64,000 nucleotides of DNA from positions 36,467-100,466 of the forward strand of contig CANLCJ010000007.1 of assembly GCA_947489085.1 (NCBI GenBank). The letters run 5' to 3'. Positions 22,387 through 62,719 of this stretch are shown piece by piece. Within the stretch, counting starts at the first letter, position 1. The number at the start of each line of letters is the position of its first letter. The notes under the pieces are model-generated. The model did no database searches. It was not told the origin of the DNA and was given only the letters and a program-made list of their open reading frames with translations. Source of the stretch: an uncultured Flavobacteriaceae bacterium (GTDB lineage Bacteria; Bacteroidota; Bacteroidia; Flavobacteriales; Flavobacteriaceae). The position numbers were made by a program, and so were the translations under genes.

Positions 22387-22403
22387 CATCCTGTTGTATC
22401 CTG
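22387..22403 (-). promoter_or_regulatory. Candidate operator (CAGGATA-caa-CAGGATG)
   Basis: Near-perfect direct repeat with 10-bp period, 365 nt upstream of the PL24 start. Confidence 0.55.
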
Positions 22404-22532
22404 ATAACTAAAGCAATAACGTTTTTCATTCTGAATTTAAATGGTAAAAAAACTATTTATTGAATAACTTTTAAATTAATTATAAGCTTCAACAAATAGT
22501 TTTTTCATTTAATTATGCAACGTTGCTAACAC

Positions 22533-25197: not shown

Positions 25198-25231
25198 AAA
25201 AGTCTCTTAGAAATACTTCTAAGAGACTTTT
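25198..25231 (-). terminator. Intrinsic terminator
   Basis: Perfect 15-bp stem aaaagtctcttagaa / ttctaagagactttt, 4-nt loop, U-tract on the - strand, 24 nt after the stop of 25255..27357. Confidence 0.85.
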
Positions 25232-25254
25232 ACTAAAATTTTAAAATTGTGCGC

Positions 25255-49119: not shown

Positions 49120-50064
49120 ATGTATTCATTAAAATTAAGTAACTTATTTAGAACAGGCTTTTTAATTCTATTAGTCTCTACAACTTCTTGTTCTGTTGAA
49201 GACGAGGTAAACACTTTGGAAGAAAATAGTACTTACGAAAACACCGAGGATTTATTTTCTAAAAGAAAACCGAAATCTGATGACGATGTTTGCACACCAG
49301 AAGGTAATAATACGTCTCGAATATATACATTCCCTAACGATGTTAACAAAACTACAGTATGGGCAACATCGCAAATTGATGACAGAACTTGTGCTTATGA
49401 TTACACACAAGAAACTTTCAATAACCTTACTTATGGTGTATACAAGCTTAAAACAAATTCAAATCATTTTGATAATTTGCAACCAAGAATTGAACGTCCT
49501 AGTAGAGCTGTTAACACTACAGGCAATGGCAGTTATGTTCTTATATCTGGTTATGTAACCATACGTGAAGCAGGACATGTTTCAGACCAATGGCCTTTTG
49601 ATGATGTTCGAAACCAATCTGGATCTTACTTCATACAAGCTAAAGGAAAACATACCAACCCAGATATTGGTTCTAACGACCCTGCAATTTGCTTACTTTT
49701 AGCTAAACCAAAATTTACTGGACAAAATCAAACCTCCTTCGATATTTACAGAGAGGAAATTACCAAAAGAGGTGGTTCTGGAACAACAGGTAGACAAATG
49801 GTGTTCCTTACTAATATTCCAGCCAATACACGCAAATTTGTAAGCATGAAAAATGGATTTAATGCCAATAACGAGCAATATGTAAACATAACCATTGGAG
49901 ACACCGATTATAACTGGATAGTACCTAATTCTATAGGCGAGGTAAATGGCCTTAACCAAGTAGGAACACAAGCTAAAATACGTTTTGGTGCCTACCGCTG
50001 TAAAGGTGGCGAAGCTGATATTTTATGGGATACTGTAAACCAGAGTTACAACGAGGTTCAATAA
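49120..50064 (+). CDS. PL28 ulvan lyase, lipoprotein, catalytic domain only
   Basis: DDRTCAYDY, YGVYK..SNHFD.LQPRIER, GSYFIQAKGKH, DPAICL.LAKP, IRFGAY match the NLR48/Formosa PL28 pattern as recalled; lipobox TTSC. Confidence 0.85.
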   Translation: MYSLKLSNLFRTGFLILLVSTTSCSVEDEVNTLEENSTYENTEDLFSKRKPKSDDDVCTPEGNNTSRIYTFPNDVNKTTVWATSQIDDRTCAYDYTQETFNNLTYGVYKLKTNSNHFDNLQPRIERPSRAVNTTGNGSYVLISGYVTIREAGHVSDQWPFDDVRNQSGSYFIQAKGKHTNPDIGSNDPAICLLLAKPKFTGQNQTSFDIYREEITKRGGSGTTGRQMVFLTNIPANTRKFVSMKNGFNANNEQYVNITIGDTDYNWIVPNSIGEVNGLNQVGTQAKIRFGAYRCKGGEADILWDTVNQSYNEVQ

Positions 50065-50220: not shown

Positions 50221-50256
50221 AAAAAGACATAAGGCAACATTGCTTTATGTCTTTTT
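50221..50256. terminator. Bidirectional terminator between convergent genes
   Basis: aaaaagacataaggca / tgctttatgtcttttt (one wobble), A/U tracts on both sides. Confidence 0.8.
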
Positions 50257-50324: not shown

Positions 50325-51422
50325 CTAAACACGCTCTAATTTTATAGGGTATGCTTTATTCGCATTCCATTGGCACACGTATAAATTTTCATCATTATCT
50401 ACACATACATCATGGCAATGGCGAAAAATAGGCTGCTCTTGTACCATGCGTTGTAGTTTTCCTTTTTTATACTTTGGTTTTGTGCCACCAGGATTAGACA
50501 CCACTTTTCCCTTTTCATCTAAAATAGTTACAAAACCTGATTTAGGATTGATGTTGTAAGGATGTGTGTTTTTGTCGCCTTCTACATAATCGATCCCTGA
50601 CGACCAACATACCCCTGAATATAAGTTTTTATTATGAATCACGGGGCGACATACAAATGCGCCTGGTAAATCTATTTGTTCTATATATTTGCCGTCTAAC
50701 GTAAAGCGCTTAAAACAATTGGCTGCTCTAGAGGTGATTAATAAAGTAGGTTCTTTGCCTCTATAATCGATACAAACCCCATGACTAGTTTGAAATTGAT
50801 TTTGACCTGTACCTCTTCCTTCTCCTATTTTTCTAATAAATTCTCCATCTTTTGTAAATTGTAACACGTAGTTAGCGCCATAGCCATCGGCTATATAAAT
50901 ATCTCCATTAGGGCCAATAGCACTTTCTGTAGGCTTAAATTTATCTTTTTTAGCGTAGGCACCGTATTTAGAGGGGTGTCCTATAATCATTAATTCTCTA
51001 CCATCGGTTGTTGTTTTTATCATGCTTTCGCCTTTGGCGTCGCAGATAAATAAAAAATCTTCAGAACCATCGTTCCATATAGACAAGCCATGCCCACCTT
51101 TGTAACGAATACCCCAAGAATCTAACAGTTTTCCTGATTTATCGTAAATTAAAATATTATTTTTAGTATTGTCTCCTACCAAGATTAAACGCCCTTTGGA
51201 GTCCATAACCATTTCGTGGCAATTTTTAACAGGCGTAATGGCCCTATCTAAATCGCCCCAAGACTTGTGTACTTTATACTTAAAATCGCCATGCCCAATA
51301 ACAGTATCATACATTTTAGGCTTCGACTTTAATATGTTAAAATGTGGCACTACAGCTAAACCTAAACTTGCTTTTGCCGTGGTATTTATAAATGTTCTTC
51401 TGTTTATTTTAGATTTTGTCAT
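50325..51422 (-). CDS. Tat-exported NHL-repeat six-bladed beta-propeller, similar to peptidyl-alpha-hydroxyglycine alpha-amidating lyase (PAL)
   Basis: Tat signal INRRTFI; GGHGL, GDIYIADGYG, TSHGVCI, TSRAAN, HCHDVCVD..NLYV. Confidence 0.75.
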   Translation of the reverse strand: MTKSKINRRTFINTTAKASLGLAVVPHFNILKSKPKMYDTVIGHGDFKYKVHKSWGDLDRAITPVKNCHEMVMDSKGRLILVGDNTKNNILIYDKSGKLLDSWGIRYKGGHGLSIWNDGSEDFLFICDAKGESMIKTTTDGRELMIIGHPSKYGAYAKKDKFKPTESAIGPNGDIYIADGYGANYVLQFTKDGEFIRKIGEGRGTGQNQFQTSHGVCIDYRGKEPTLLITSRAANCFKRFTLDGKYIEQIDLPGAFVCRPVIHNKNLYSGVCWSSGIDYVEGDKNTHPYNINPKSGFVTILDEKGKVVSNPGGTKPKYKKGKLQRMVQEQPIFRHCHDVCVDNDENLYVCQWNANKAYPIKLERV

Positions 51423-51437
51423 GATTACTGTAAACGT

Positions 51438-52916
51438 TTAAGTGATGTTGTTTTTTGATGTTTTCATTGGCTTACCAAATAAATCTAATATGGGTTTTCC
51501 TTTACCATCTGGGGTGGTATAAAAGGGCCTGCCTTCTATTTCGTAATGGGTTTGAGGATGGATCCCTAAGGCACTATAAATAGATTGGTGTACTTGGTCT
51601 ATCACTACTTTATTTTCTATAGAAACACAAGGCCTTTCGTCTGCTGTTTTACCATAAACGAGTCCTTTTTTAACACCTCCACCCCACATTAAAATAGAAC
51701 CTCCATCGGTAAAATGGCGGTGCATACCGTAGTGCCTAATATGCTCTATTTTATCTGGTTGTCTTCTGGCTTGGTCTCTAACTTCTTCACCTGGCCTGCC
51801 TTCCATAATAGCATCTCTACTAAATTCACTCGCTAAAATAACCAAGGTTCTATCCAAATGGCCAGATTCGTCTAAATCTTTTATTAACTGCGCTACAGGT
51901 CTGTCTATTAAGGCTTTCATTTGTTTGGCTCTTGTATGCCCGTTTGCATGCGTATCCCAACCTAAAAAGGGTTCGTACTCGGTAGATACGCTAATAAAAC
52001 GCCCTCCGTTTTGTGCTAAACGTTTAGCGAGCAAACACCCTAATCCAAATCGTCCTGTATTATAAGTATCATACACGTCTTTCGGTTCTTGAGACAAATC
52101 AAACACCTTAGCTTCTGGCGAATTTAAAAGTCGATACGATTGTTCCATTGAGCGCATTAGCGATTCGCGTTGGTAATCGCTTGCTTGTTCCATAACCTCA
52201 CTTTTATTCGCTAATGCTTTGTACAATTTATAACGTGCCTCAAAACGTTTTAAAGACATGCCTTCTGGAGGCCGTACACTGTCTAAACCTTCTGAGGGGT
52301 CTGGAATTAAAAACGGGCCATATTCACTGCCTAAAAACCCTGCAGTGTGAAAGGCTTTTAACTCTTCGGCTTCCCCCATGGTAAAACGCTGGCCGATAGA
52401 TATAAATGGTGGTATTACAGGGTTGGCTGGGCCTAGTTCTTTCGCAATCCATGCGCCAATATGAGGGGCTTGTACCGATTGTGGCGGCTCATAACAGGTA
52501 TGCCAGTGAAATTGATGCCTGGTATGCAGTATAAATCCTAAATCGGCTGCTTTGTAAGATCTAATAATTGCACCTTTATCCATTACACCTCCAATAGATT
52601 GTAAGCCTTCAGAAAACTCTAGTCCATCAACTACTGTGGGATGTTTTGGAAATGTACTTAATACCCTATTGGTTTCTAAACCTTTTTCAAAAGGGGCATA
52701 GGCTTTAGGGTCGAAGGTTTCGGTATGCGCCATTCCGCCCGCCATCCATAATAAAATAACGCTATCGGCAGTTGCGGCTCTTTTTTGCACTTCTGGAGAA
52801 CAGGAGCTTAAAAAACTGGCTAAAGGTAGTGTTGTAGCGGAGGCTGCAATACTGGCTGCAGACATTTTTTTTATAAATTCTCTACGTGAATTGCTCTTAT
52901 TATTTTTATAGGTCAT
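51438..52916 (-). CDS. DUF1501 family protein (alkaline phosphatase/sulfatase-like clan), Tat lipoprotein, copy A
   Basis: SRREFIKK, FLSSC, LLWMAGGMAHTETFDPK, PHIGAWIA.ELG, FGLGCLLAKRL..G.RFI, WDTH, LIKDL..SG.LDRTLV...SEFSR, GGGVK.G.VYGKT. Confidence 0.85.
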   Translation of the reverse strand: MTYKNNKSNSRREFIKKMSAASIAASATTLPLASFLSSCSPEVQKRAATADSVILLWMAGGMAHTETFDPKAYAPFEKGLETNRVLSTFPKHPTVVDGLEFSEGLQSIGGVMDKGAIIRSYKAADLGFILHTRHQFHWHTCYEPPQSVQAPHIGAWIAKELGPANPVIPPFISIGQRFTMGEAEELKAFHTAGFLGSEYGPFLIPDPSEGLDSVRPPEGMSLKRFEARYKLYKALANKSEVMEQASDYQRESLMRSMEQSYRLLNSPEAKVFDLSQEPKDVYDTYNTGRFGLGCLLAKRLAQNGGRFISVSTEYEPFLGWDTHANGHTRAKQMKALIDRPVAQLIKDLDESGHLDRTLVILASEFSRDAIMEGRPGEEVRDQARRQPDKIEHIRHYGMHRHFTDGGSILMWGGGVKKGLVYGKTADERPCVSIENKVVIDQVHQSIYSALGIHPQTHYEIEGRPFYTTPDGKGKPILDLFGKPMKTSKNNIT

Positions 52917-52934
52917 AACTAAAAAACGGTCTCA

Positions 52935-55772
52935 TTAGTTTATAAATTGAAATTCGGGCGACATTAATACCGACCAAAATACGTCTTGTACTTGTGCTGT
53001 CGAAGGTTGCTCCCCTAAAGACGCCATAACAATGTTTTGCTCTTCTTTAGATGGTGCTCTTCCCAGTAATTCTTGATAAAGTGTATCTACAATTAAACGG
53101 CTATCGTTCCCATATGTGTTAAGCCATTTTTTTGCGCCTTGCTTTAAAATGCCATTAAAAAAACCGCCATTGGTTAATTCCAAGGCTTGTAATAACGTGG
53201 CTTGTTCTTCTCGCGTTGTGGTTACAATTTCTCTATTTGGACGTCCAAGAGCTTTTAAGAACGGGTGCTGTTTTACCAAACTAGCTCTGGCAAATGTTTT
53301 TTGATGGTCTTTAAATGTAAAGTCTAATAATTTTGCCCAGTTACTGGTTCTATAGTTCTTTACTTTTTTCCATCTTTTGGCTTCAAAATCCAAATCTGCC
53401 CAATTGGCTTTGGGTGCTACATCTGTACTTAGCCATGTTTCGTCGGAGTAGAGGTTAAATACGCTATCATCTTTAAAAGCAACTTTCATGGCAAACAAAA
53501 TACTCGCTGGATTGCCTATTTTTCCTTTATTATCTCCCTCTACAGCAATACAATTAGTGCCTTTGGTTAGAAGGTTTGCAACGTTGTATTTCCCAACATC
53601 TGTCCAATTATCGCCTGTACCTACAGGTTTACCGTTAATAAACAGTTTGTAGGCATCGTCTACCGAAATTAAAATAGAGGCGTCTTGTATGTTCTCTTTT
53701 TTAAGTTGAAATGTTTTTCTAAAGTAACGCTTTCCTGGTAGTGGTAATACGGTATTGGTTAGGTCTTTTTGATGGTGCCAAATGCGTTGGGCTGGCATTT
53801 TTTCTTCGTTAGGATTGTAAGCCACTGCAACATAAACAGGTGCTATAACTTGACTTATAGCATCTGAAAACTGCTCTGCACTTAAGCGCCTTAAAACAGG
53901 CCCTTTAAACACATAATCTTGCTTTATAGCTTCTGCTGTTTTATAACTTACAGTAGGCAACTGGTAGGCCTTAGAAGTCATAATACGTTTTATCAAATGC
54001 TTTAAATCTGTACCAGAATCGATAAAATCTGAAGCCAACCAATCTAACAATTCGGCATTCCAAGGGGTGTTATCCATTTCATCTACGGGCTCTATAATAC
54101 CTCTTCCTATTAGCCGTTCCCATATACGGTTTGTTATGGTTCTGTATAAACGCCCGTTCTCTTTACTGGTCATTACTTCAGAGAGTTTTAACAAGCGTTC
54201 TTTTAACGTTTCGCCTTCTACGCTTCCTAATTCTGGATACAGAAAGTTAACTTTAGCAATCTTACCTATAGGCTTATCACATCGGTTAAGTTCTAATGGT
54301 TTTTCTGCAAAAATTGAAGCAAAACCGTAAGCTTGATCTAAGGTTAAATTGCTAATAAAACTATTATGACAAGATGCACATTTTACATTAACGCCCATTA
54401 AGGATTGTCCTATATTTTGAGCGGCTTGCATTTCGGTGCGCTGGCTGGAGTTTACAACGCCACGCCATTGGATGCCTTTTATAAAACCTTCCGATGCTTT
54501 ACTCGGGTTCATCAATTCGCTCACTACTTGATCATAAGATTTATTTTGCTTTAAGGTATTGTATAACCATGTTGTAATTTGAAATCGCCCTCGGGTTATA
54601 AACCCTGTTCCGCTATAATCATTACGCAATAAATCGTTCCAAAAACTTAGCCAATTTTGTGTGTAATTTTCAGAATCGTTCAACAATTCATCAATTAAAA
54701 GTTCGCGTTTTTTTGGGTTTGTGCTTGCTATAAAAGCATTTACTGCTGTAGGTTTTGGCAATAGTCCCACAACATCCATATAAGCTCTTTTTATAAACTT
54801 TCTATCATCCACTACAGCGTTCCAGTCTACTTTTTTATCTTTAAAGTAAACGCTTACAATTTTATCTACAGGATGCGTTTCTTCTGTTACGGTTGGTAGT
54901 GCTGGTTGTGTTAAAGCCAATGGGGCTTCTGGAAATACTTTAACGGCTTTGTCTGACCAATGTGCGCCATCTTCTATCCATAATTTTATAAGTGCAATTT
55001 CATCAGGTGTGAGTAATTTGCCTTTAGTAGGCATTACTTTTTTATCATTTGCTGGAAGAATAATGCGCTTGTAAATTTCACTTTCTTCTGGCTGTCCTGG
55101 CACAACTGCTAATCCTGATGTTCCCCCTTTAAAAACACCTTCTTTATGTTCTAAAACTAACCCCCCTTTTTGTTTGTTTTCACTGTGGCATTGGTAGCAT
55201 TTATGTGCAAAAAGCCCTCGTACTTCTAGGTTTAATTTGTCTTTTTGTAGTTCTGATAATTCTGAAGCACCTTTAAGCTCTGTAAGCAATGCGCTAGATT
55301 CTAAATTACTATAGCCTTTTTCATTTCCAGGTAATATTTCGGTTAAATAATCTTCACCATGGGTTAAATTAGCGCCTAAGTGGCCTGCTATGCTTAGCAG
55401 TACAACGGTAGTAACTAGCATAAAACGGTATGCTTTTAAATTTAAGGGGGCCTTTTTCAATGTACGACTTAAAATTATAGCAGTAAGAATGGCTAAAACA
55501 GCTGTAGCGATTCCTGTATATTGGTGATTGTCTACCAAATCTCCAGAATACTCGTCTTGGGTTTTTAAAAACCAACCAAAAAGCGCGGCACATGCAGCAA
55601 CACCAGCCCCTATATATACCATCCAATTAATGCCTTCTCTAAGGCCTTTGCGTTTACCGCCTAGGGTAAGTAATTCTAATACTAATGCTACAACTAAAAG
55701 ACCTATGGGAAAATGCACCAATAGCGGATGCAAGCGTCCGAAAAATTGTAGTATCCAGTTTGTGTTTTCCAT
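52935..55772 (-). CDS. Membrane-anchored planctomycete-type cytochrome c / DUF1549 / DUF1553 protein with CBM67-like insert, copy A
   Basis: N-terminal TM region (HPLLVHFPIG, GHLGANLTHG; DUF2231-like); CYQCH..KGGL.L (PSCyt1); HPVD..V..; FIKRAYMDVVGLLP; KCASCH; NRIWERLIGRGIIEPVDE; RRLSAEQFSDAI; LQALELTN. Confidence 0.85.
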   Translation of the reverse strand: MENTNWILQFFGRLHPLLVHFPIGLLVVALVLELLTLGGKRKGLREGINWMVYIGAGVAACAALFGWFLKTQDEYSGDLVDNHQYTGIATAVLAILTAIILSRTLKKAPLNLKAYRFMLVTTVVLLSIAGHLGANLTHGEDYLTEILPGNEKGYSNLESSALLTELKGASELSELQKDKLNLEVRGLFAHKCYQCHSENKQKGGLVLEHKEGVFKGGTSGLAVVPGQPEESEIYKRIILPANDKKVMPTKGKLLTPDEIALIKLWIEDGAHWSDKAVKVFPEAPLALTQPALPTVTEETHPVDKIVSVYFKDKKVDWNAVVDDRKFIKRAYMDVVGLLPKPTAVNAFIASTNPKKRELLIDELLNDSENYTQNWLSFWNDLLRNDYSGTGFITRGRFQITTWLYNTLKQNKSYDQVVSELMNPSKASEGFIKGIQWRGVVNSSQRTEMQAAQNIGQSLMGVNVKCASCHNSFISNLTLDQAYGFASIFAEKPLELNRCDKPIGKIAKVNFLYPELGSVEGETLKERLLKLSEVMTSKENGRLYRTITNRIWERLIGRGIIEPVDEMDNTPWNAELLDWLASDFIDSGTDLKHLIKRIMTSKAYQLPTVSYKTAEAIKQDYVFKGPVLRRLSAEQFSDAISQVIAPVYVAVAYNPNEEKMPAQRIWHHQKDLTNTVLPLPGKRYFRKTFQLKKENIQDASILISVDDAYKLFINGKPVGTGDNWTDVGKYNVANLLTKGTNCIAVEGDNKGKIGNPASILFAMKVAFKDDSVFNLYSDETWLSTDVAPKANWADLDFEAKRWKKVKNYRTSNWAKLLDFTFKDHQKTFARASLVKQHPFLKALGRPNREIVTTTREEQATLLQALELTNGGFFNGILKQGAKKWLNTYGNDSRLIVDTLYQELLGRAPSKEEQNIVMASLGEQPSTAQVQDVFWSVLMSPEFQFIN

Positions 55773-55828
55773 GTTATATTTTAATCAAAAAAAGTAATTA
55801 TAAAATTATTTTAAATGTGTTCTAAGAT

Positions 55829-55845
55829 TGTCCTGTGGTGTCGCA
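55829..55845 (-). promoter_or_regulatory. Weak candidate operator (TGCGACA-cca-CAGGACA)
   Basis: 57 nt upstream of the start at 55772; degenerate. Confidence 0.3.
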
Positions 55846-55865
55846 TAGCTTCATTACAACTTATG

Positions 55866-57314
55866 TTAAGTGGTCTGCATTGGTTTTCCAAACAAATCTA
55901 AAATTGGTTTTCCTTTTCCGTCTGGTGTGGTATAAAATGGACGGCCTTCTATTTCGTAATGGGTTTGCGCATCTATGCCTAGAGCGTGATATACCGACTG
56001 ATGAACTTGATCTATAACTACAGGTTTTTCTATAGAGGAGCAGGGCCTTTCATCGGCTGTTTTACCGTATACTAATCCTTTTTCTACGCCTCCACCCCAC
56101 ATTAAAATAGAACTGCCATCTGTAAAATGACGGTGCATGCCATAATATTTTTCATCTTCTATAATATCGGGTTGATCGACTTGATTTTTAACAAGTTCGC
56201 CCGGTCGTCCTTCCATTATAGCATCTCTACTAAATTCGCTTGCCAGTATAATTAATGTTTTATCTAAATGCCCTGTTTCGTCTAAATCTTTAATTAATTG
56301 AGAAACGGGTCTGTCTATCAGTGCTTTCATTTTTTTAGCTCTAATGTGTCCATTTTCGTGCGTATCCCAGCCTAAAAATGGTTCGTATTCTGTAGATACG
56401 CTAATAAATCTACCACCGTTCATTGCCAAACGTTTTGCTAATAAACAGCCCAAACCAAAGCGCCCTGTGTTGTAGGTATCGTAAACGTCTTTTGGTTCTT
56501 GCGATAAATCGAACACCTTGGCTTCTGGAGAGTTTAGTAAGCGGTAAGATTGTTCCATAGAACGCATTAAAGATTCGCGCTGATAATTACTCCCCTTTTC
56601 CATGATTTCACTTTTATTCACCAATTCTTTGTAGAGTTTATAGCGCGACTCAAATCGTTTTAAAGACATGCCTTTAGGCGGTCGTACACTATCTAAGCCA
56701 CTAGAGGGATCGGGAATTAAAAATGGCCCATACTCTGTACCTAGAAACCCTGCTGAATGAAAGGCTTTTAGCTCTTCGGCTTCTCCCATGGTAAAACGCT
56801 GCCCTATAGAAATAAAAGGGGGAATTACAGGGTTTACTGGCCCTAATTCTTTAGCTATCCACGCCCCTATATGTGGTGCTTGCACCGATTGTGGGGGTTC
56901 GTAGCAGGTATGCCAATGGTACTGGTGTCTGGTGTGTAAAATATGACCCAAATCGGCAGATTTATAGGAGCGGATTATAGCGCCTTTATCCATAACGCTC
57001 CCAATTCCCTCTAATCCTTGGGAAAACTCTAAACCATCTACCACTGTTGGTATTTTAGGAAACGTACTTAAAATACGCTTGCTTTCTACACCTTTTTCGT
57101 AAGGCACATAGGCTTTAGGATCGAATGTTTCTGTATGTGCCATACCGCCAGCCATCCAAAGTAAAATAACAGTATCTGCTGTGGCTGCTCTTTTTTGTAC
57201 TTCTGGGGTACAAGAACTTAAAAAACTTGATATAGAAATAGTTGTTGTAGAGGCCGCTATACTGGCAGCAGTCATTTTTTTTATAAATTCTCTACGTGAG
57301 TTTTGTGTTTCCAT
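55866..57314 (-). CDS. DUF1501 family protein, Tat lipoprotein, copy B
   Basis: Same motifs as copy A; highly similar sequence. Confidence 0.85.
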   Translation of the reverse strand: METQNSRREFIKKMTAASIAASTTTISISSFLSSCTPEVQKRAATADTVILLWMAGGMAHTETFDPKAYVPYEKGVESKRILSTFPKIPTVVDGLEFSQGLEGIGSVMDKGAIIRSYKSADLGHILHTRHQYHWHTCYEPPQSVQAPHIGAWIAKELGPVNPVIPPFISIGQRFTMGEAEELKAFHSAGFLGTEYGPFLIPDPSSGLDSVRPPKGMSLKRFESRYKLYKELVNKSEIMEKGSNYQRESLMRSMEQSYRLLNSPEAKVFDLSQEPKDVYDTYNTGRFGLGCLLAKRLAMNGGRFISVSTEYEPFLGWDTHENGHIRAKKMKALIDRPVSQLIKDLDETGHLDKTLIILASEFSRDAIMEGRPGELVKNQVDQPDIIEDEKYYGMHRHFTDGSSILMWGGGVEKGLVYGKTADERPCSSIEKPVVIDQVHQSVYHALGIDAQTHYEIEGRPFYTTPDGKGKPILDLFGKPMQTT

Positions 57315-57352
57315 GTTCTTTATCTTTAAAGCGTATTTCTAATTTTTTAGAA

Positions 57353-60187
57353 TTAATCAATAAATTGAAATTCTGGTGACATTAAAACAGCCCAAAACAA
57401 ATCTTGTAATTGTGCTTTTTCTGGATTTGTCCCTAAAACGTTAAGCATTACTTCGCGTTCTTCTTTCGAGGGCTTACGGCCTAATGCGTTTCGATACAAA
57501 TCGCTAACCATTTTTCCTGTATCTGTGGCGTATCTGTCTAACCAAAGTCGCGCGCCTTCTTCTAAAACACTATCAAAAAACGCTCCATTTGTTAGCTCTA
57601 AAGCTTGTAATAATGTTGCTTGTTCTTCTCTAGAAGTGGTTACTATTTCCCTACTTGGGCGCCCAAGTGCTTTCATAAACGGGTGTTGTTTTACCAAACT
57701 AGCACGCGCAAATTTTTCGTCTTGGTCTTTAAATGTAAAATTGAGCAATTTGCCCCAATTGTTAAAGTTACGTGTGCCATAGTCTCTCACCTCTAGCCAA
57801 TTTGAATCGTTAAAATGAACCGCTGTCCAACCCGATTCTGGTAATGCATCAACACTTTTCCATGTGGTGTCTGAGTTCATTTCTAAAATAGCTCCAGATG
57901 CTTGTTCTATTTTTAAAGCAAATAGAATCCCTGCTGGATTTGCTATGGTACCATCGTTCTCTCCTAGCACGGCTATTGTATTTTTTCCAACAACCAAATA
58001 GGAACTTATGTCTATTTTACCAACGTCTTTCCAATTGTTATTTTCTAAAACTTTTTGTCCGTTTATAAAAAGCTGGTACGAGTGGTCTACCGAAATTAGA
58101 GCTTTAGCACTCACTATGTTTAACGATGGTAGGTGAAAAGACTTTCTAAAATAGCGTTTACCAGGTTCTGGCAACACGACCCTGTTAAATTTAATTTCTT
58201 TGTGCCATATGCGTTTGGCTTTTATATTTTCGCCATTAGGATTAAAGGCAACATCTGGATACATTGGTGCTATAACTTGGCTTACAGCATCAGAGAATTG
58301 CTCTGCACTTAAACGGCGTGATATAGGCCCTTTGAATACGTAATTAACCTTGGTGTCTTCTATTTTATCATAATTAATCATGGGTTGTTGGTAGGCTTTA
58401 GAAGTGACAATACGCTTTATCAAATGCTTTAAATCTGAGCCATTATCCACAAAATCTGCCGCTAACCAATCTAGAACCTCTGCATCCCAAGGGGCATTAT
58501 CCATCTCGTCTAGTGGCATAACAATACCACGACCCATTAAACGGCTCCAAAATCTATTGGCCAGCGTACGGTATAGCCTGCCATTATCTCTTTGTACCAT
58601 AACTTCAGACAGTTTTAATAAACGGTCTTTTATAGTTTTACCTTCTACGCTTCCTAACTCAGGGTATAAAAAGCTGGCTTTTGCCATTTTGCCTATAGGT
58701 TTATCGCACCTGTTTAGCTCTAGTATTGAATCTGAAAAAATAGTGGCGAAACCATAGGCTTGAGCTAGGGTAAGATTGCTAATAAAACTATTATGACAAG
58801 AGGCGCATTTTACATTTACGCCCATTAAAGATTGCCCTATGTTTTGTGCGGCTTGCATTTCGGTGCGTTGGCTGGCATTTACAACGCCACGCCATTGTAC
58901 GCCTCTAATAAAACCTTTAGAGCCTTTAACTGGGTTTACCAATTCGCGTACTATATCGTCGTACGATTTATTTGTTATTAGCGCATTGTACAACCAGTTG
59001 GTAATTGGACGTTTTCCTCCTGCGCTACTGTAATCGTTTCGTAATAGATCATTCCAGAATGTAAGCCAATGTTGTGTATAATTTTTATTGTCGCTTAGTA
59101 GTTTATCTACTAATGCTTCTCGTTTATGTTCGTTTTTATCATTGATGAAGGCCTCAACTACATCAACATCTGGCAACAAACCAATAATATCCATGTGGAT
59201 GCGCCTTACAAACGTTCTATCGTCTACAACCTCTTGCCAGTCTACGTTGTTTTTATCAAAATAAGCATCTACTAACTTATCTATAGGATGGGTTTCTTTG
59301 GTTGCTGTGGGCAATGTTGGTGTTAGTAAAGCCAATGGGGCTTCTGGAAATACTTTAACGGCTTTGTCTGACCAATGCGCACCATCTTCTATCCATAATT
59401 TTATAAGCGCAATTTCATCGGGCGTTAATAATTTGCCCTTGGTAGGCATTACTTTTTTATCGTTTGCTGGTAAAATAACGCGCTTGTAAATTTCACTTTC
59501 TTCTGGTTGTCCCGGCACAACTGCTAATCCTGATGTTCCGCCTTTAAAAACACCTTCTTTATGTTCTAGAACCAACCCACCTTTTTGTTTGTTTTCACTA
59601 TGGCATTGGTAACATTTATGTGCAAAAAGGCCTCGTACTTCTAGGTTTAATTTGTCTTTTTGCAGTTCTGATAATTCTGAAGCACCTTGAAGTTCTGTAA
59701 GCAATGCGCTAGATTCTAAATTACTATAGCCTTTTTCATTTCCAGGTAATACTTCAGTTAAATAGTCTTCACCATGGGTTAAATTAGCACCTAAGTGGCC
59801 TGCTATACTTAACAGAACTACTGTAGCAACCAGCATAAAACGGTACGCTTTTAAATTTAGGATGTTCTTCTTTAAACTTTTTCTTAAAATTACAGCGGTA
59901 ATAAGGGCCAAAACAGCTGTAGCGATTCCTGTGTATTGGTGATTGTCTACCAAATCTCCAGAATACTCATCTTGGGTTTTTAAAAACCAACCAAAAAGCG
60001 CAGCACATACAGCAACACCAGACCCTATGTACACCATCCAATTAATGCCTTCTCTAAGGCCTTTGCGTTTACCGCTTAGGGTAAGTAGTTCTAAGACTAA
60101 AGCCACAACTAAAAGACCTATTGGAAAATGTACCAATAGCGGATGTAAGCGTCCGAAAAATTGTAATACCCAATTTGTAGTTTCCAT
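57353..60187 (-). CDS. Membrane-anchored planctomycete-type cytochrome c / DUF1549 / DUF1553 protein with CBM67-like insert, copy B
   Basis: Same architecture as copy A: HPLLVHFPIG, CYQCH, CASCH, NRFWSRLMGRG, RRLSAEQFSDA, insert KRYFRKSF..SVDHSYQLFING..GKNTIAV..NPAGILFAL. Confidence 0.85.
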   Translation of the reverse strand: METTNWVLQFFGRLHPLLVHFPIGLLVVALVLELLTLSGKRKGLREGINWMVYIGSGVAVCAALFGWFLKTQDEYSGDLVDNHQYTGIATAVLALITAVILRKSLKKNILNLKAYRFMLVATVVLLSIAGHLGANLTHGEDYLTEVLPGNEKGYSNLESSALLTELQGASELSELQKDKLNLEVRGLFAHKCYQCHSENKQKGGLVLEHKEGVFKGGTSGLAVVPGQPEESEIYKRVILPANDKKVMPTKGKLLTPDEIALIKLWIEDGAHWSDKAVKVFPEAPLALLTPTLPTATKETHPIDKLVDAYFDKNNVDWQEVVDDRTFVRRIHMDIIGLLPDVDVVEAFINDKNEHKREALVDKLLSDNKNYTQHWLTFWNDLLRNDYSSAGGKRPITNWLYNALITNKSYDDIVRELVNPVKGSKGFIRGVQWRGVVNASQRTEMQAAQNIGQSLMGVNVKCASCHNSFISNLTLAQAYGFATIFSDSILELNRCDKPIGKMAKASFLYPELGSVEGKTIKDRLLKLSEVMVQRDNGRLYRTLANRFWSRLMGRGIVMPLDEMDNAPWDAEVLDWLAADFVDNGSDLKHLIKRIVTSKAYQQPMINYDKIEDTKVNYVFKGPISRRLSAEQFSDAVSQVIAPMYPDVAFNPNGENIKAKRIWHKEIKFNRVVLPEPGKRYFRKSFHLPSLNIVSAKALISVDHSYQLFINGQKVLENNNWKDVGKIDISSYLVVGKNTIAVLGENDGTIANPAGILFALKIEQASGAILEMNSDTTWKSVDALPESGWTAVHFNDSNWLEVRDYGTRNFNNWGKLLNFTFKDQDEKFARASLVKQHPFMKALGRPSREIVTTSREEQATLLQALELTNGAFFDSVLEEGARLWLDRYATDTGKMVSDLYRNALGRKPSKEEREVMLNVLGTNPEKAQLQDLFWAVLMSPEFQFID

Positions 60188-60229
60188 ACTATTTTATCGT
60201 TTATCCTTAACGTTTTTTAAAATTAAAGT

Positions 60230-60236
60230 TATCCTG
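60230..60236 (-). promoter_or_regulatory. Candidate operator half-site CAGGATA
   Basis: In the 60-nt gap between rhaT and the cytochrome gene, 43 nt upstream of the start at 60187. Confidence 0.4.
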
Positions 60237-60247
60237 TCTCATTTTTA

Positions 60248-61303
60248 TTAGTATAACGAATTTCCAATACCCACCAAAACAACGGATAAAATAATTACAA
60301 CAATTCCCGATGTTATTGTTAATTTAGTGTTTTTAGCAACGCCATGCCACTCCTTGCGGTACACCCCCCAAAGGTTTGCGGTTAAAATAATGGTAGACAT
60401 GTGTAAAATCCAAGAACTGGCACCATTACCTAATTTGCTTTCGCCCATACCGTAAAAGAAAAACTGTAAAAACCAAACGGTACCTGCCAAAGTAGAAAAC
60501 AGTACGTTTTTAGAAATAGGCGTTTGCTTATTTGTAAAGTCTTTATACGCTTTGTTTTTTAGGCTCAAATAAGTAGTCCATACCAAATTAGAGACTAAAC
60601 CACCCCAAAGAATAACTACAAAAGTAACGTTGTTTGCAAATAAATGATCGTAGCCTGATGCAACAGCTGCGTCTGCTAAAGGTTTACCCGATTCGATCCC
60701 AAAGCTAAAAAATGAACTTAATATGCCCGAAAGCACAGCAACTATTAGGCCTTTTACCAAATTAAATTCTGTTACACTCTTCTTCTTTTCTTCATCAGAC
60801 AATTCTTTTTCTTTTAGCATACCTGCTTTTCCGCAAATTGCAATACCTATCAAACACACTAAAACCCCAAGTAAAACGACTTTTCCTCCAGAAGTCGCTA
60901 TCATGTCTGTAAAGGAGGTTTTCCCCTCCTCTGGATTAAAGTTGTAATATATTGATGGGACTATGGCTCCAAATGCTGCACAAAAGCCCAAAACGACTGA
61001 GTTTCCTAAAGACATCCCTAAGTACCGTACGCCTAAACCATAAGACAAACCACCTATGCCCCAAAGCAACCCCATTAAAAAGGTAAACCCTAAAATTGTG
61101 CTTGAACTTGATGCTATAATTTCTACAAACCCTGGGACGGTTAAATAGGCTGCTATTGGGGGTACAATAAGCCAAGACATAACACCGCCTACCATCCAGT
61201 AGGTTTCCCATGCCCACCCTTTTACTTTATTATAGGGCATATAAAAACTACCTGCGGCTACGCCTCCTAAAGCATGAAATAAAACTCCTAATAGTGCCTG
61301 CAT
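60248..61303 (-). CDS. rhaT: L-rhamnose/H+ symporter
   Basis: GVLFHALGG.AAGSFYMPY.KVKGWAWETYW, LWGIGGLSYGLGVRYLGMSLG, WFLQFFFYGMG, SWILHM; about 10 TM segments. Confidence 0.95.
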   Translation of the reverse strand: MQALLGVLFHALGGVAAGSFYMPYNKVKGWAWETYWMVGGVMSWLIVPPIAAYLTVPGFVEIIASSSSTILGFTFLMGLLWGIGGLSYGLGVRYLGMSLGNSVVLGFCAAFGAIVPSIYYNFNPEEGKTSFTDMIATSGGKVVLLGVLVCLIGIAICGKAGMLKEKELSDEEKKKSVTEFNLVKGLIVAVLSGILSSFFSFGIESGKPLADAAVASGYDHLFANNVTFVVILWGGLVSNLVWTTYLSLKNKAYKDFTNKQTPISKNVLFSTLAGTVWFLQFFFYGMGESKLGNGASSWILHMSTIILTANLWGVYRKEWHGVAKNTKLTITSGIVVIILSVVLVGIGNSLY

Positions 61304-61321: not shown

Positions 61322-62719
61322 TTACTCCTTTATTTTATTGATGTATTCTGGGTTTTCAGTTTTTGGAATAGCTGCATTTGTATCTTTCCACCAAGTCTTT
61401 AAAAGCGCTACCATTTCGGCTGCTTTTTCAGGATTTTTTTCTGCGAGATTGTGTCTTTCTGCGATGTCTTCAGACAAATTGTATAATTCAATAGCATTAT
61501 CTTCAAAATAATAATGGAGTTTCCAGTCTCCTTTTCTTACCACAGATCCTGGACGTGTTCTAAATAAAGGGTCGCGATTTTCGTTATCGTTTACATTATA
61601 AGCTTCTAAATAAATAGGGAAATGCCAAAATAGAGGTCGCTCGAAAATCTGTACATCTTCTTCTAAAACGGGTGCTAAATTAGCTCCGTCTAATTGAAGC
61701 GCACTGGCATCTACTCCAGCATATTTTAATACCGTTGGAAAAATATCTAAGTTCGTTATGGGAACTTCACTCTTTGTGTTTGCTTTAATCTTATCTTTCA
61801 ATACAAAGAAAAAAGGTTCTCTAATACCGCCTTCGTAATAGCTTCCTTTTCCTGCTCTAAGTGGTTTTTGTTTTGTTATGCCATACAAACCACCATTATC
61901 TGAAGTAAAAACAATAAGTGTGTTATCTAAAAGGTTTTTGTCTTTTAACTTATTGATAAGTAAGCCTATATTTCTATCTAAATTATCTACCATAGAGGCA
62001 TATTTGGCATTGCCTTGCCCCTTCCATGGCGATTTTTTCTCGTATTTAGGCACAATACTATCTACTGCCATTATAGGCACGTGTACGGCATAGGGTGAAT
62101 AGTTTAAATAAAATGGTTTTTGAACGCTGTCTACAAATTTTAAAGCGTGTTCCATCACCAAATCGGTTAAATACTCGCTATTGCCTTTTTCAATCTTCAC
62201 ATTTTTATAAGGCGGGTAATAGCTTCTAGGCAGCCCATTATGCCCTCCTCCAATATTCACATCAAAACCATACTCTAAAGGGTTATCACTTAAATGCCAT
62301 TTTCCCGCATGGCAGGTTAGGTATCCATTTTCATGCAAAACCTTTGGTAAAATGAGGTGTTTTGGGGATAAGGTATGGGTGTTTTTTATGGGAATTATTT
62401 TTCTATCTTCAGATTTACCTCGTGTTGAAGGGCTAACGGTGTAAACGCCGTGTCGTGGTGTCCACTGCCCCGTCATTAAACTGGCTCTACTAGGGGCGCA
62501 GTTAGAGGCCGATGCATAGCCGTTTGTAAATACCATTCCTAAACTGGAGAGGTGATCTATATTAGGGGTTTCATAGTATTTGCTTCCCATAAAACCAACA
62601 TCTTTCCAGCCCATGTCATCCACATTTATAATGATGATATTAGGTCGGGGTGGTGTATCTTGTTTGCTTTTACAAGCTACACACAGTAGTAACATTAAGC
62701 ATAAAGCTATTATTCTCAT
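61322..62719 (-). CDS. S1 sulfatase (tentatively S1_16), lipoprotein
   Basis: RPNIIIINVDDMG, CAPSR, GKWHL, TSDNGG, LRAGKGSYYEGGIR, WHFPIY; lipobox CVAC. Confidence 0.9.
   Translation of the reverse strand: MRIIALCLMLLLCVACKSKQDTPPRPNIIIINVDDMGWKDVGFMGSKYYETPNIDHLSSLGMVFTNGYASASNCAPSRASLMTGQWTPRHGVYTVSPSTRGKSEDRKIIPIKNTHTLSPKHLILPKVLHENGYLTCHAGKWHLSDNPLEYGFDVNIGGGHNGLPRSYYPPYKNVKIEKGNSEYLTDLVMEHALKFVDSVQKPFYLNYSPYAVHVPIMAVDSIVPKYEKKSPWKGQGNAKYASMVDNLDRNIGLLINKLKDKNLLDNTLIVFTSDNGGLYGITKQKPLRAGKGSYYEGGIREPFFFVLKDKIKANTKSEVPITNLDIFPTVLKYAGVDASALQLDGANLAPVLEEDVQIFERPLFWHFPIYLEAYNVNDNENRDPLFRTRPGSVVRKGDWKLHYYFEDNAIELYNLSEDIAERHNLAEKNPEKAAEMVALLKTWWKDTNAAIPKTENPEYINKIKE

What the first reader, a model, noticed from the sequence alone, without database searches (positions are those of the whole stretch)
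50325..61303. Duplicated sugar-targeted periplasmic cytochrome cassette (DUF1549/DUF1553-cyt c + Tat DUF1501 + PAL-like propeller) inside an ulvan locus, behind rhaT
Seen: sulfatase, rhaT, big protein B, DUF1501 B, big protein A, DUF1501 A and the NHL propeller are co-oriented with gaps under 95 nt and end at one terminator (50221-50256). Each big protein has a His-rich N-terminal TM domain (HPLLVH, NHQ, GHLG..HG) and two haem-c motifs (CYQCH, CASCH). Both DUF1501 proteins have SRREFIKK Tat signals followed by a FLSSC lipobox. Established: DUF1549/DUF1553/PSCyt and DUF1501 are uncharacterised partner families, abundant in Planctomycetes, and DUF1501 belongs to the alkaline phosphatase/sulfatase clan; to my knowledge such a cassette is not part of the described ulvan pathway. 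Inference: a membrane-bound electron-transfer module coupled to a cofactor-loaded Tat enzyme that oxidises, or oxidatively desulfates or cleaves, rhamnose-containing oligosaccharides. This context would give the first substrate hint for these families.
Basis: partly seen in the sequence, partly recalled or inferred. Interest (0 to 1): 0.88.

Follow-up and report, generated by a model that had tools for sequence, protein, structure and literature searches.

The report
Rhamnose-targeted cytochrome/DUF1501 module in ulvan locus
Two old paralogous copies of an uncharacterised membrane cytochrome plus sulfatase-fold enzyme pair, each carrying a rhamnose-type sugar-binding domain, sit in a rhamnose/ulvan operon of a marine flavobacterium, which gives a testable substrate context for very large protein families of unknown function.

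Summary
Seven co-oriented minus-strand genes, with gaps of 93 nt or less, run from an S1 sulfatase and RhaT through two BIG+DUF1501 pairs to an NHL propeller. They end at a 16-bp hairpin.

Each BIG protein has these parts:
- a DUF2231 four-helix membrane domain with five invariant His
- PSCyt1, with CxxCH and Met
- PSCyt2/DUF1549, with a second CxxCH
- PSD1/DUF1553, interrupted by a CBM67-like module

DUF1501 is a Tat-exported lipoprotein with an alkaline-phosphatase/sulfatase-superfamily fold. It lacks the sulfatase motif. The propeller is Tat-exported and PAL-like.

- The two pairs are ancient paralogues (dS saturated). Only the first ~900 nt of the BIG genes look homogenised (dS ~0.3).
- Across 80 genome loci the BIG+DUF1501 pair is nearly universal. 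Only one derived clade, the A and B lineages, is linked to rhamnose/ulvan genes: 14 of 14 loci against 2 of 55.
- In that clade a residue at the CBM67 sugar site changes.

Earlier papers had already described the DUF1501/PSCyt module and proposed a carbohydrate role, so "first substrate hint" is overstated. The oxidative chemistry remains inference. I rate this a new variant of a known, uncharacterised kind, with moderate to high interest.

The parts
62775..63980 (-). C-terminal part of a GH106-type alpha-L-rhamnosidase. The ORF runs off the window end.
   Evidence: NF045579 rhamnoside jelly-roll domain, 150 bits; BT4145-like rhamnosidase hit. The full-length homologue in L007 (1160 aa) matches PF17132 GH106 at E 7e-188.
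61322..62719 (-). S1 (formylglycine-type) sulfatase with a lipoprotein-like signal peptide.
   Evidence: PF00884 at E 1e-53. Conserved upstream of rhaT/BIG in L007, L026 and L068 at 86% identity.
60248..61303 (-). RhaT L-rhamnose/H+ symporter.
   Evidence: NF010024, 513 bits against a cut-off of 468. Lies directly upstream of B-lineage BIG genes in L007, L008 and L026; in L068 a PL28 ulvan-lyase gene on the opposite strand lies between rhaT and BIG.
57353..60187 (-). BIG-B, 944 aa: DUF2231 4-TM domain, PSCyt1 haem c, PSCyt2/DUF1549 with a second CxxCH, PSD1/DUF1553 split by a CBM67-like module, and a DUF1800-like C-terminus.
   Evidence: Pfam; invariant His, Cys and Met residues; B lineage in the tree.
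57740..58216 (-). CBM67-like jelly-roll insert of BIG-B (aa 658-816). Site motif is D-H.
   Evidence: PDB 3w5m residues 155-295 at E 1.5e-14; POL-type lectins at E 1e-16; NF041573, 72 bits.
55866..57314 (-). DUF1501-B, a Tat-signal lipoprotein (SRREFIKK ... FLSSC).
   Evidence: PF07394 at E 6e-71. 87% identical to DUF1501-A with saturated dS.
52935..55772 (-). BIG-A, 945 aa, with the same architecture as BIG-B.
   Evidence: Pfam; A lineage in the tree.
55362..55733 (-). DUF2231 membrane domain of BIG-A (aa 14-137). Contains the invariant H15, H20, H83 and H131; the fifth invariant His, H138, lies one residue past the matched stretch.
   Evidence: PF09990 at E 5e-14. The five His are 99-100% conserved in 76 homologues. 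The DUF2231+PSCyt1 module recurs fused to multi-haem chains.
55029..55199 (-). PSCyt1 cytochrome c domain of BIG-A (C192-x-x-C195-H196, axial M247).
   Evidence: PF07635 at E 7e-16. Residues invariant.
54303..54872 (-). PSCyt2/DUF1549 domain of BIG-A with a second CxxCH (C465-A-S-C468-H469).
   Evidence: PF07583 at E 7e-40. Invariant. The same two-motif layout occurs in mainstream PSCyt proteins.
53352..53792 (-). CBM67-like insert of BIG-A (aa 661-807). Site motif is D705-D706, with W723, N748 and P755.
   Evidence: PDB lectins 6t0q/6kbj at E 7e-19; 3w5m at E 7e-7. Site conservation.
54873..55772 (-). Gene-conversion tract, copy in BIG-A (codons 1-300). The partner tract is 59288-60187 in BIG-B.
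   Evidence: dS 0.29-0.50 here, against more than 1.3 or saturated in most of the remainder (0.75 in codons 425-484).
51438..52916 (-). DUF1501-A, a Tat-signal lipoprotein with an alkaline-phosphatase/sulfatase-superfamily fold and a His-rich insert (HTRHQFHWHTCYEPP).
   Evidence: PF07394 at E 1e-72. AF2 pTM 0.71. Foldseek finds LtaS and S1 sulfatases at E 2e-5. Alignment to mainstream DUF1501.
50325..51422 (-). Tat-signal (RRTFI) six-bladed NHL propeller, PAL-like.
   Evidence: NHL/DUF5128. PAL 3fvz at E 5e-7, with HGLSI and DGY aligned. Invariant H111, Y181, H214, R232 and H337.
50221..50256 (.). Bidirectional terminator-like hairpin between the convergent NHL and PL28 genes.
   Evidence: 16-bp stem, 4-nt loop, A-run and T-run flanks.
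49120..50064 (+). PL28 ulvan lyase (lipoprotein), convergent on the cassette.
   Evidence: PF22826 at E 1e-85. Homologues lie within 10 kb of BIG in 7 A/B-clade loci.

Best explanation
The region encodes two paralogous copies of a conserved two-protein periplasmic module, followed by an accessory lyase-like propeller. All of it sits in an operon-like gene row whose other genes release and import L-rhamnose: a GH106 rhamnosidase, an S1 sulfatase and RhaT.

Shown:
- BIG is anchored in the inner membrane by a four-helix DUF2231 domain.
- BIG carries two c-type haem motifs and a CBM67-like sugar-binding module.
- DUF1501 is a Tat-exported lipoprotein with an alkaline-phosphatase/sulfatase-superfamily fold and a non-canonical, His-rich active-site region.
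- The propeller keeps the residues of peptidyl-hydroxyglycine lyase (PAL) that could be checked.
- The clade containing both copies is consistently syntenic with rhamnose/ulvan genes.

Inferred mechanism:
1. Ulvan oligosaccharides enter the periplasm.
2. The CBM67-like module of BIG captures a terminal rhamnose-type residue, possibly sulfated, at the membrane surface.
3. The tightly co-evolving DUF1501 partner carries out metal-dependent chemistry on it.
4. The two haems c and the His-rich DUF2231 domain couple a redox step of that reaction to the quinone pool. The direction of electron flow is unknown.
5. The PAL-like Zn lyase resolves an unstable hydroxylated intermediate.
6. The released rhamnose is taken up by RhaT.

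The A and B copies differ most in the CBM and PSD1 regions. They probably handle two different rhamnose-containing ends.
For: - Architecture.
- Invariance: the TM His residues, both CxxCH motifs, Met247 and the CBM67 site residues D705, W723, N748 and P755 are invariant in 76 homologues.
- CBM67 homology: 3w5m residues 155-295 match at E 1.5e-14, and the alignment places D179-N180 on D705-x706.
- Pairing: BIG and DUF1501 are adjacent in about 76 of 80 loci.
- DUF1501 is under extreme purifying selection. dN is 0.088 with saturated dS, and identity is still 79% or more at rank 120 of the homologue list.
- Fold: AF2 pTM 0.71; Foldseek hits are exclusively LtaS and S1 sulfatases.
- Targeting: the Tat RR and the lipobox Cys are invariant.
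- The DUF2231+PSCyt1 module is fused elsewhere to chains of up to six PSCyt1 haem domains.
- PAL alignment and invariant catalytic-position residues.
- Synteny: 14 of 14 against 2 of 55 loci, and NHL in 13 of 14 against 5 of 55.
- Site residue 706 is H in 75% of the family. It is D throughout lineage A and N in five lineage-B members; N is the SaRha78A residue.
- Published proposals of an electron-transport role and a carbohydrate role: PMC3542564 and PMC5615132.
Against: - No expression, haem, metal or activity data exist.
- No alkaline-phosphatase-superfamily enzyme is known to perform redox chemistry.
- The Ser that is invariant in mainstream DUF1501 (GGPSQ) is Ala in this subfamily, so the nucleophile is unknown.
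- The AF2 model is only moderate (pLDDT 62), and the active-site loops have low confidence.
- Most family members (53 of 55 non-A/B loci) lack rhamnose genes. Some sit next to dnaE or other housekeeping genes.
- The window's own BIG-B keeps the ancestral His at site 706.
- Co-transcription is inferred only from short gaps. No Bacteroidetes -7 box was found or excluded decisively.
- The canonical ulvan degrader pathway papers that could be searched mention no such genes.
Confidence: 0.5

Rival explanations
1. DUF1501 is a purely hydrolytic enzyme, a non-canonical sulfatase or phosphoesterase. BIG is its substrate-binding scaffold. The haems serve only to generate or maintain the enzyme's cofactor or metal oxidation state (a maturase-like role), or are structural. 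No substrate oxidation occurs.
For: - Foldseek hits are sulfatases and LtaS.
- hhalign matches the strand before the sulfatase SDNG metal motif (LVILASEF ~ LIVFTSDN).
- S1 sulfatases lie within 10 kb in 20 of 69 loci of 12 kb or longer.
- The BIG C-terminus resembles haem-less DUF1800 (E 1e-4). From my own knowledge, DUF1800 also pairs with DUF1501, which would suggest that haem is not essential to the pair.
Against: - There is no C/S-x-P-x-R motif, and the DD metal ligands after strand 1 are replaced by GG.
- One haem protein per enzyme gene is unusual for a maturase.
- Both haem motifs and all five TM His are invariant. That argues for a function used continuously.
Confidence: 0.22
2. The module has a general envelope or respiratory function unrelated to glycans. 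Its place in the ulvan locus is a lineage-specific accident of gene order.
For: - 53 of 55 non-A/B loci lack rhamnose markers.
- dnaE/dinB-type genes lie directly upstream in several loci.
- The very high conservation (about 80% for DUF1501 across orders) is more typical of core functions than of PUL enzymes.
Against: - Every member keeps a CBM67-like module with conserved site residues.
- About 14 loci place the pair directly behind ECF-sigma/FecR/SusC/SusD, which is a PUL-type layout.
- A/B-clade synteny is 14 of 14 across Polaribacter, Algibacter, Maribacter, Cellulophaga and Echinicola.
- The change at the sugar site coincides with the change of context.
Confidence: 0.12
3. BIG is a periplasmic sugar receptor. 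It either hands rhamnose or oligosaccharide to RhaT or signals substrate availability. DUF1501 is a non-catalytic partner.
For: - rhaT lies directly upstream in three B-lineage loci and the window, and in L068 with one intervening gene.
- The CBM module is conserved.
- The mainstream Ser is lost in this DUF1501 subfamily.
Against: - BIG has no cytoplasmic output domain.
- Most family members have no adjacent transporter.
- The many invariant His, Asp and Glu residues of DUF1501 and its dN/dS of about 0.03 fit an enzyme.
- A receptor would not need haems.
Confidence: 0.06

Closest known systems
DUF1501 + PSCyt1/PSCyt2/PSD1 gene module of Planctomycetes-Verrucomicrobia (Kamneva et al. 2012, PMC3542564; He et al. 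2017, PMC5615132)
   Same: - The same three Pfam domains occur in the large protein, with an adjacent DUF1501 gene.
- DUF1501 has a Tat motif.
- A carbohydrate-binding module is inserted in the large protein.
- Two CxxCH motifs lie about 270-290 residues apart.
- Function is unknown.
   Different: - BIG is anchored by an N-terminal DUF2231 4-TM domain. The mainstream Bacteroidota copies seen here have a lipoprotein signal instead.
- The CBM is CBM67-like and sits inside PSD1.
- The DUF1501 partner is a divergent subfamily, about 25% identical to mainstream. Ser is replaced by Ala in the GGPSQ motif, a His-rich insert is present, and it has a lipobox.
- A PAL-like propeller is appended.
- The module is embedded in an ulvan/rhamnose operon of a flavobacterium.
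S1 formylglycine sulfatases and LtaS (alkaline phosphatase superfamily)
   Same: Overall alpha/beta fold (Foldseek probability about 1, E 2e-5 to 3e-3). The strand-plus-acidic-residue motif matches (SEF against SDN).
   Different: - No C/S-x-P-x-R motif.
- No Pfam Sulfatase hit.
- No PDB sequence hit.
- TM-scores are only 0.3-0.39.
- Export is by Tat.
- The gene is obligatorily paired with a cytochrome gene.
CBM67 of Streptomyces avermitilis Rha78A (PDB 3w5m) and CBM67-like fungal lectins (POL; 6kbj, 6t0q)
   Same: Significant sequence match over the whole module. Conserved Asp, Trp, Asn and Pro lie at the positions aligned to D179, W203, N228 and P233.
   Different: - The module is inserted in a cytochrome/DUF1553 protein rather than a glycosidase or lectin.
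- The N180-equivalent is H in most of the family, D in lineage A and N in part of lineage B.
- Ligand binding is untested. The roles of the SaRha78A residues are recalled from memory, because that paper was not available.
Peptidyl-alpha-hydroxyglycine alpha-amidating lyase (PAL, PDB 3fvz). In animals it works with the PHM monooxygenase and the transmembrane cytochrome b561.
   Same: - Six-bladed NHL propeller.
- The HGLSI and DGY motifs align.
- Invariant H111, Y181, H214, R232 and H337 fit the PAL Zn-His, Tyr and Arg positions.
- By analogy, the cassette also contains a transmembrane His-rich electron carrier.
   Different: - Bacterial, Tat-exported, and in a glycan locus.
- Only part of the alignment was verified with tools.
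- No PHM-like copper monooxygenase is present.
- The propeller is absent from about 75% of family loci.
Periplasmic 3-keto-glycoside (glycoside 3-dehydrogenase) pathways
   Same: A periplasmic, Tat-dependent, cytochrome-linked route of sugar processing. GFO/IDH/MocA and DUF1080 (3-keto-disaccharide hydrolase) genes occur near the pair in about 10 and 8 loci, and a DUF1080 gene lies in the window at 34926-35732.
   Different: The cassette has no flavin- or NAD-dependent dehydrogenase. DUF1501 has a hydrolase-type fold.

Membership tests
PSCyt/PSD + DUF1501 module (PVC-type) | The large protein contains PSCyt1, PSCyt2 (DUF1549) and PSD1 (DUF1553). | tested here: met
   All three score above the Pfam cut-offs in both BIG proteins.
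PSCyt/PSD + DUF1501 module (PVC-type) | An adjacent, co-oriented DUF1501 gene with a twin-arginine motif. | tested here: met
   PF07394 at 246 and 240 bits. SRREF is invariant. Gaps are 18 and 38 nt. The pairing holds in about 76 of 80 loci.
PSCyt/PSD + DUF1501 module (PVC-type) | CxxCH haem-attachment motifs in PSCyt1 and PSCyt2. | tested here: met
   C192xxCH and C465xxCH are invariant in 76 sequences. Mainstream proteins show the same pair of motifs. Actual haem attachment cannot be tested here.
S1 formylglycine sulfatase | C/S-x-P-x-R formylglycine motif and an N-terminal DD metal ligand pair. | tested here: not met
   The motif is absent. Strand 1 ends in GG. There is no Pfam Sulfatase hit.
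Alkaline phosphatase superfamily (clan level) | The alpha/beta core fold. | tested here: met
   Foldseek top 50 hits are all LtaS, sulfatase or AP-superfamily proteins, with probability 0.84-1.0. The model is only moderate (pLDDT 62).
CBM67 | Sequence homology to the SaRha78A CBM67 module. | tested here: met
   3w5m residues 155-295 at E 1.5e-14 (BIG-B) and residues 141-282 at E 7e-7 (BIG-A).
CBM67 | Ca2+/rhamnose-binding residues (D179, N180, N228 and P233 in SaRha78A, as I recall them). | tested here: inconclusive
   The D, N and P equivalents are invariant. The N180 equivalent is D in BIG-A and H in BIG-B. The residue roles could not be checked because the paper is not held.
CBM67 | Binding of L-rhamnose. 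| not testable with these tools
   Needs ITC or glycan-array work on the recombinant insert.
PAL-type NHL lyase | Six-bladed NHL propeller with three Zn-binding His plus a catalytic Tyr and Arg. | tested here: inconclusive
   H111 and Y181 align to the PAL HGLSI and DGY motifs. H214, R232 and H337 are invariant, but they were matched to PAL only from my memory of its sequence.
Ulvan utilisation locus | Ulvan lyase together with GH78 rhamnosidase and S1 sulfatases. | tested here: met
   PL28 at E 1e-85. Three BNR_4 + PF24208 ulvan-lyase trefoil proteins, three GH78 genes and seven sulfatases.
Ulvan utilisation locus | A SusC/SusD pair. | tested here: not met
   None of the ORFs of 150 aa or more in the 64-kb window gave a SusC or SusD hit. 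The pair may lie outside the window.
DUF1800 + DUF1501 pair | A DUF1800 domain in the partner protein. | tested here: inconclusive
   Only sub-threshold hits of the BIG C-terminus to PF08811 were found (21.7 and 21.4 bits against a cut-off of 26.1).

The most novel reading that the evidence does not exclude
BIG, DUF1501 and the PAL-like propeller together form a previously unrecognised class of periplasmic enzyme that uses haem to drive oxidative glycan processing.

In this reading, electrons pass between the quinone pool and a metal centre in the sulfatase-fold DUF1501 through the DUF2231 domain and two haems c. DUF1501 then oxidises or hydroxylates a carbon next to a sulfate ester, ether or glycosidic oxygen of sulfated rhamnose. 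The Zn lyase cleaves the resulting hemiacetal-type intermediate. This would be a bacterial carbohydrate analogue of the PHM-PAL-cytochrome b561 system.

If true, it would assign a reaction type to the DUF1501, DUF1549 and DUF1553 families.
Probability: 0.15. Interest if true: 0.9.

Novelty: new variant of a known kind. Interest (0 to 1): 0.62.

Why it matters
DUF1501, DUF1549/PSCyt2 and DUF1553/PSD1 are among the most abundant uncharacterised families in Planctomycetota and Verrucomicrobiota. They also occur widely in marine Bacteroidota. The searchable literature reports no biochemical function for them.

This locus offers several handles for experiments:
- a defined polysaccharide (ulvan)
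- a defined sugar (L-rhamnose, by way of a CBM67-like module and RhaT)
- a clade-specific synteny signal
- cultured carriers: Algibacter pectinivorans DSM 25730, Polaribacter aquimarinus, Polaribacter sp. WD7, Maribacter sp. R86514 and Echinicola pacifica DSM 19836

That makes the function question directly testable. It would also add a step to the ulvan pathway that the Formosa agariphila model does not contain.

Tried and rejected
- AlphaFold2 of DUF1501-A with a shallow alignment (29 sequences at 79% identity or more) gave pLDDT 43.7 and was discarded. A two-clade alignment gave only pLDDT 62. This is enough for fold assignment but not for active-site geometry.
- PDB sequence searches with DUF1501, as a single sequence and as a profile, found nothing.
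- hhalign against the six window sulfatases aligned only 35 columns, at 59% probability. Residue-by-residue mapping to the sulfatase site was therefore abandoned.
- Two PDB sub-queries meant to bring up the PAL alignment failed. A third succeeded for blades 2-3 only.
- The CBM67 structure paper (PMC3636921) is not held, so the residue roles rest on memory.
- The sigma-70 promoter scan was no better than shuffled sequence: 59 hits against 53±7. No Bacteroidetes TAnnTTTG box lies in the intergenic gaps. Operon boundaries remain inferred.
- The BIG CBM insert shows no similarity to the jelly-roll of the neighbouring GH106, so local domain shuffling was rejected.
- I considered and rejected the idea of a recent tandem duplication.
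- I also rejected DUF1501 as an ordinary S1 sulfatase (motifs absent), and the cassette as a glycoside 3-dehydrogenase system (no dehydrogenase gene in it).
- Literature searches for DUF2231, for DUF1553 and for ulvan combined with cytochrome returned nothing functional.

Full report
**Observation**

In the direction of transcription they are:
- the C-terminal part of a GH106 rhamnosidase, 62775-63980, cut by the window end
- an S1 sulfatase, 61322-62719
- RhaT, 60248-61303 (513 bits, above the NCBIfam equivalog cut-off)
- BIG-B, 57353-60187
- DUF1501-B, 55866-57314
- BIG-A, 52935-55772
- DUF1501-A, 51438-52916
- an NHL propeller, 50325-51422

The gaps between them are 55, 18, 60, 38, 93, 18 and 15 nt. 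A 16-bp hairpin flanked by A- and T-runs at 50221-50256 separates the NHL gene from a convergent gene. That convergent gene is a PL28 ulvan lyase (E 1e-85).

The rest of the window carries PL8, GH2, GH3 (two), GH43, three GH78 genes, three BNR_4 + ulvan-lyase-trefoil + T9SS proteins, a DUF1080 3-keto-disaccharide hydrolase and six more S1 sulfatases. The 'ulvan locus' context is therefore sound. No SusC/SusD pair lies in the window.

**Anatomy of BIG**

Pfam gives the following layout:
- DUF2231, aa 14-137
- PSCyt1, aa 192-248
- PSCyt2/DUF1549, aa 301-490
- PSD1/DUF1553 in two pieces
- a sub-threshold DUF1800-like C-terminus

The piece that splits PSD1 (aa ~660-810) matches the CBM67-like lectins 6t0q and 6kbj (E 7e-19). 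It also matches residues 141-295 of the Streptomyces rhamnosidase 3w5m, which is its CBM67 module (E down to 1.5e-14).

In 76 full-length homologues the following are invariant or nearly so:
- H15, H20, H83, H131 and H138
- C192-x-x-C195-H196 and M247
- C465-x-x-C468-H469
- the CBM positions D705, W723, N748 and P755

By the positive-inside rule, read directly from the sequence, all five His lie near the periplasmic face of the four helices.

The DUF2231+PSCyt1 module on its own has 978 50%-identity clusters at E<1e-30. In other proteins it is fused to chains of three to six PSCyt1 domains, or to LRR, LamG, WD40 or PSCyt2/PSD1 domains. This fits a generic membrane entry or exit point for electrons.

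**Anatomy of DUF1501**

Both copies have an invariant SRR-x-F Tat motif and an invariant FLSSC lipobox.

The subfamily is extraordinarily conserved. Identity is still 79% at rank 120 of the homologue list, across Flavobacteriales, Cytophagales and Saprospiraceae. It is only about 25% identical to mainstream DUF1501 proteins found in the same genomes.

Compared with mainstream DUF1501:
- GGPSQ-ETFDYKP becomes GGMAH-TETFD-PK, so the invariant Ser becomes Ala.
- A His-rich insert, HTRHQFHWHTCYEPP, is gained.
- WDTH and SEFSRD are kept.

There is no PDB sequence relative. An AF2 model built on a two-clade alignment reached pLDDT 62 and pTM 0.71. Foldseek returned only LtaS and S1 sulfatases, at E 2e-5 to 3e-3 and TM 0.3-0.39. 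hhalign aligns LVILASEF with the sulfatase LIVFTSDN strand.

DUF1501 is therefore a member of the alkaline-phosphatase superfamily with a non-canonical site. It is not an S1 sulfatase.

**Anatomy of the propeller**

The propeller has a Tat-type RRTFI motif. It matches NHL repeats and PAL (3fvz, E 5e-7). The alignment places GGHGLSI on PAL's PHGLSI and ADGYG on SDGYC. H111, Y181, H214, R232 and H337 are invariant in 20 homologues. As I remember the PAL sequence, these are its three Zn-binding His, its catalytic Tyr and its Arg. Only the first two were verified with a tool.

**The duplication is old**

BIG-A and BIG-B are 72% identical, and the two DUF1501 proteins are 87% identical. Synonymous divergence is saturated across both DUF1501 genes and, apart from one window at 0.75 (codons 425-484), exceeds 1.3 across BIG codons 301-945. 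It is only 0.29-0.50 in BIG codons 1-300.

A neighbour-joining tree of BIG aa 301-945 separates two lineages:
- Lineage A contains BIG-A, L001, L004-L006, L009 and L037, plus the A copies of the two-copy loci L002 and L003.
- Lineage B contains BIG-B, L007, L008, L018, L020, L026, L068 and the B copy of L002.

Many genomes carry only one lineage. Both lineages occur in tandem only in the window and its closest relatives: L002 and L003 hold both BIG genes, and L001 starts within the B unit.

The 'duplicated cassette' is thus two long-diverged paralogues. Their DUF2231+PSCyt1 part has been homogenised, most simply by gene conversion.

**Neighbourhood survey**

Eighty genome loci were examined.
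- BIG and DUF1501 are adjacent and co-oriented in about 76 of 80.
- Lineages A and B, with Echinicola L032, form the only clade linked to rhamnose/ulvan genes. All 14 loci of 12 kb or more carry GH78, GH106, rhaT, PL28 or a BNR_4 lyase within 10 kb. Only 2 of 55 other loci do (Fisher 8e-13; the loci are not phylogenetically independent, but they span at least five genera).
- NHL follows DUF1501 in 13 of 14 A/B loci, against 5 of 55 others.

The remaining family members sit in other contexts:
- directly behind ECF-sigma/FecR/SusC/SusD in about 14 loci, often followed by a second pair of the type PSCyt-CBM6 + mainstream DUF1501
- near GFO/IDH/MocA and DUF1080 genes
- next to dnaE/dinB

The CBM67 site residue aligned to N180 of SaRha78A is His in 75% of the family. 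It is Asp throughout lineage A and Asn in five lineage-B members. A change at the sugar site therefore accompanies the move into rhamnose loci. The window's BIG-B keeps His.

**Literature**

Kamneva et al. 2012 described DUF1501 + PSCyt1/2 + PSD1 as a conserved PVC module. They noted Tat signals and carbohydrate-binding domains, and they proposed electron transfer.

He et al. 2017 reported PSCyt proteins with CBMs, including Bac_rhamnosid_N, next to sulfatases. They found enrichment in oxic-layer genomes, and they proposed that these proteins 'mirror' glycoside hydrolases acting on imported oligomers.

No functional study was found. The ulvan papers searched mention no cytochrome or DUF genes. 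The claim of a 'first substrate hint' is therefore overstated. The specific link to rhamnose/ulvan in cultivable flavobacteria appears to be new.

**Mechanism**

Shown:
- membrane anchoring of BIG
- the periplasmic location implied by c-type haem motifs and Tat signals
- a conserved sugar-binding-type module
- a sulfatase-superfamily partner under very strong constraint
- a PAL-like accessory protein
- clade-specific synteny with rhamnose release and uptake genes

Inferred:
- The CBM67-like module holds a terminal rhamnose-type residue of an imported ulvan oligosaccharide.
- DUF1501 acts on that residue.
- The haems and DUF2231 link a redox step to the quinone pool, in an unknown direction.
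- The PAL-like lyase resolves an unstable intermediate.
- RhaT imports the product.

I put about 0.5 on this general picture. I put about 0.15 on the specific oxidative hydroxylation-plus-lyase chemistry. The main rival, at about 0.22, is a purely hydrolytic enzyme whose haem partner serves cofactor or metal maintenance.

**Verdict**

The feature is real, well-delimited and non-random. It is a new variant (DUF2231-anchored, CBM67-bearing, with a divergent lipoprotein DUF1501 and a PAL-like partner) of a known but uncharacterised module. Its value lies in making the function of very large DUF families experimentally approachable.

Noticed in passing
window 54873-55772 and 59288-60187: The first ~900 nt of the two BIG genes have dS of about 0.3, while most of the rest of both gene pairs is saturated. 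This is a gene-conversion (or recent recombination) tract covering exactly the DUF2231+PSCyt1 part.
   Followed up: yes
window 49120-50064 (+): A PL28 ulvan lyase (E 1e-85). Its lipoprotein signal is followed by acidic residues (CSVEDE), which looks like a Bacteroidota surface-export signal. It is convergent on the cassette and shares the hairpin terminator.
   Followed up: partly
window 19593-27357 (-): Three tandem paralogues with a BNR_4 propeller, an ulvan-lyase beta-trefoil (PF24208) and a T9SS sorting tail. They are separated by unusually long gaps of about 500-560 nt. They are probably secreted PL25-type ulvan lyases.
   Followed up: no
window 35738-38188 (-) and 47885-48796 (+): An 816-aa protein and a 303-aa protein inside the locus have no Pfam or NCBIfam hit. 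The 816-aa protein has a 37%-identical homologue in the Echinicola pacifica locus L032. They are candidates for undescribed ulvan-active enzymes.
   Followed up: partly
window 34926-35732 (-): A DUF1080 / 3-keto-disaccharide hydrolase gene lies inside the ulvan locus. The same family and GFO/IDH/MocA oxidoreductases recur near BIG+DUF1501 pairs in other genomes (8 and 10 loci). This hints at oxidative 3-keto-glycoside chemistry in these loci.
   Followed up: partly
L010, L011, L012, L013, L016, L017, L029, L050 (about 14.3-20.9 kb in each locus): A second, mainstream-type pair lies a short way downstream of the BIG-type pair: directly after it in seven of these loci, and one ORF further on in L029. 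The pair is a lipoprotein PSCyt1-PSCyt2-CBM6-PSD1 protein plus a DUF1501. In several of these loci the genes lie behind ECF-sigma/FecR/SusC/SusD, so these PULs appear to have DUF1501 proteins as their only 'enzymes'.
   Followed up: partly
window 1-64000: No SusC/SusD pair and no regulator were found among the ORFs of 150 aa or more. Nearly all genes are on the minus strand, so the transporter and regulatory part of this PUL must lie outside the window.
   Followed up: no
window 41827-43851 (-): A DUF3352 protein (674 aa) with a weak adhesin-like C-terminus is embedded between GH43 and GH78. Its function is unknown.
   Followed up: no
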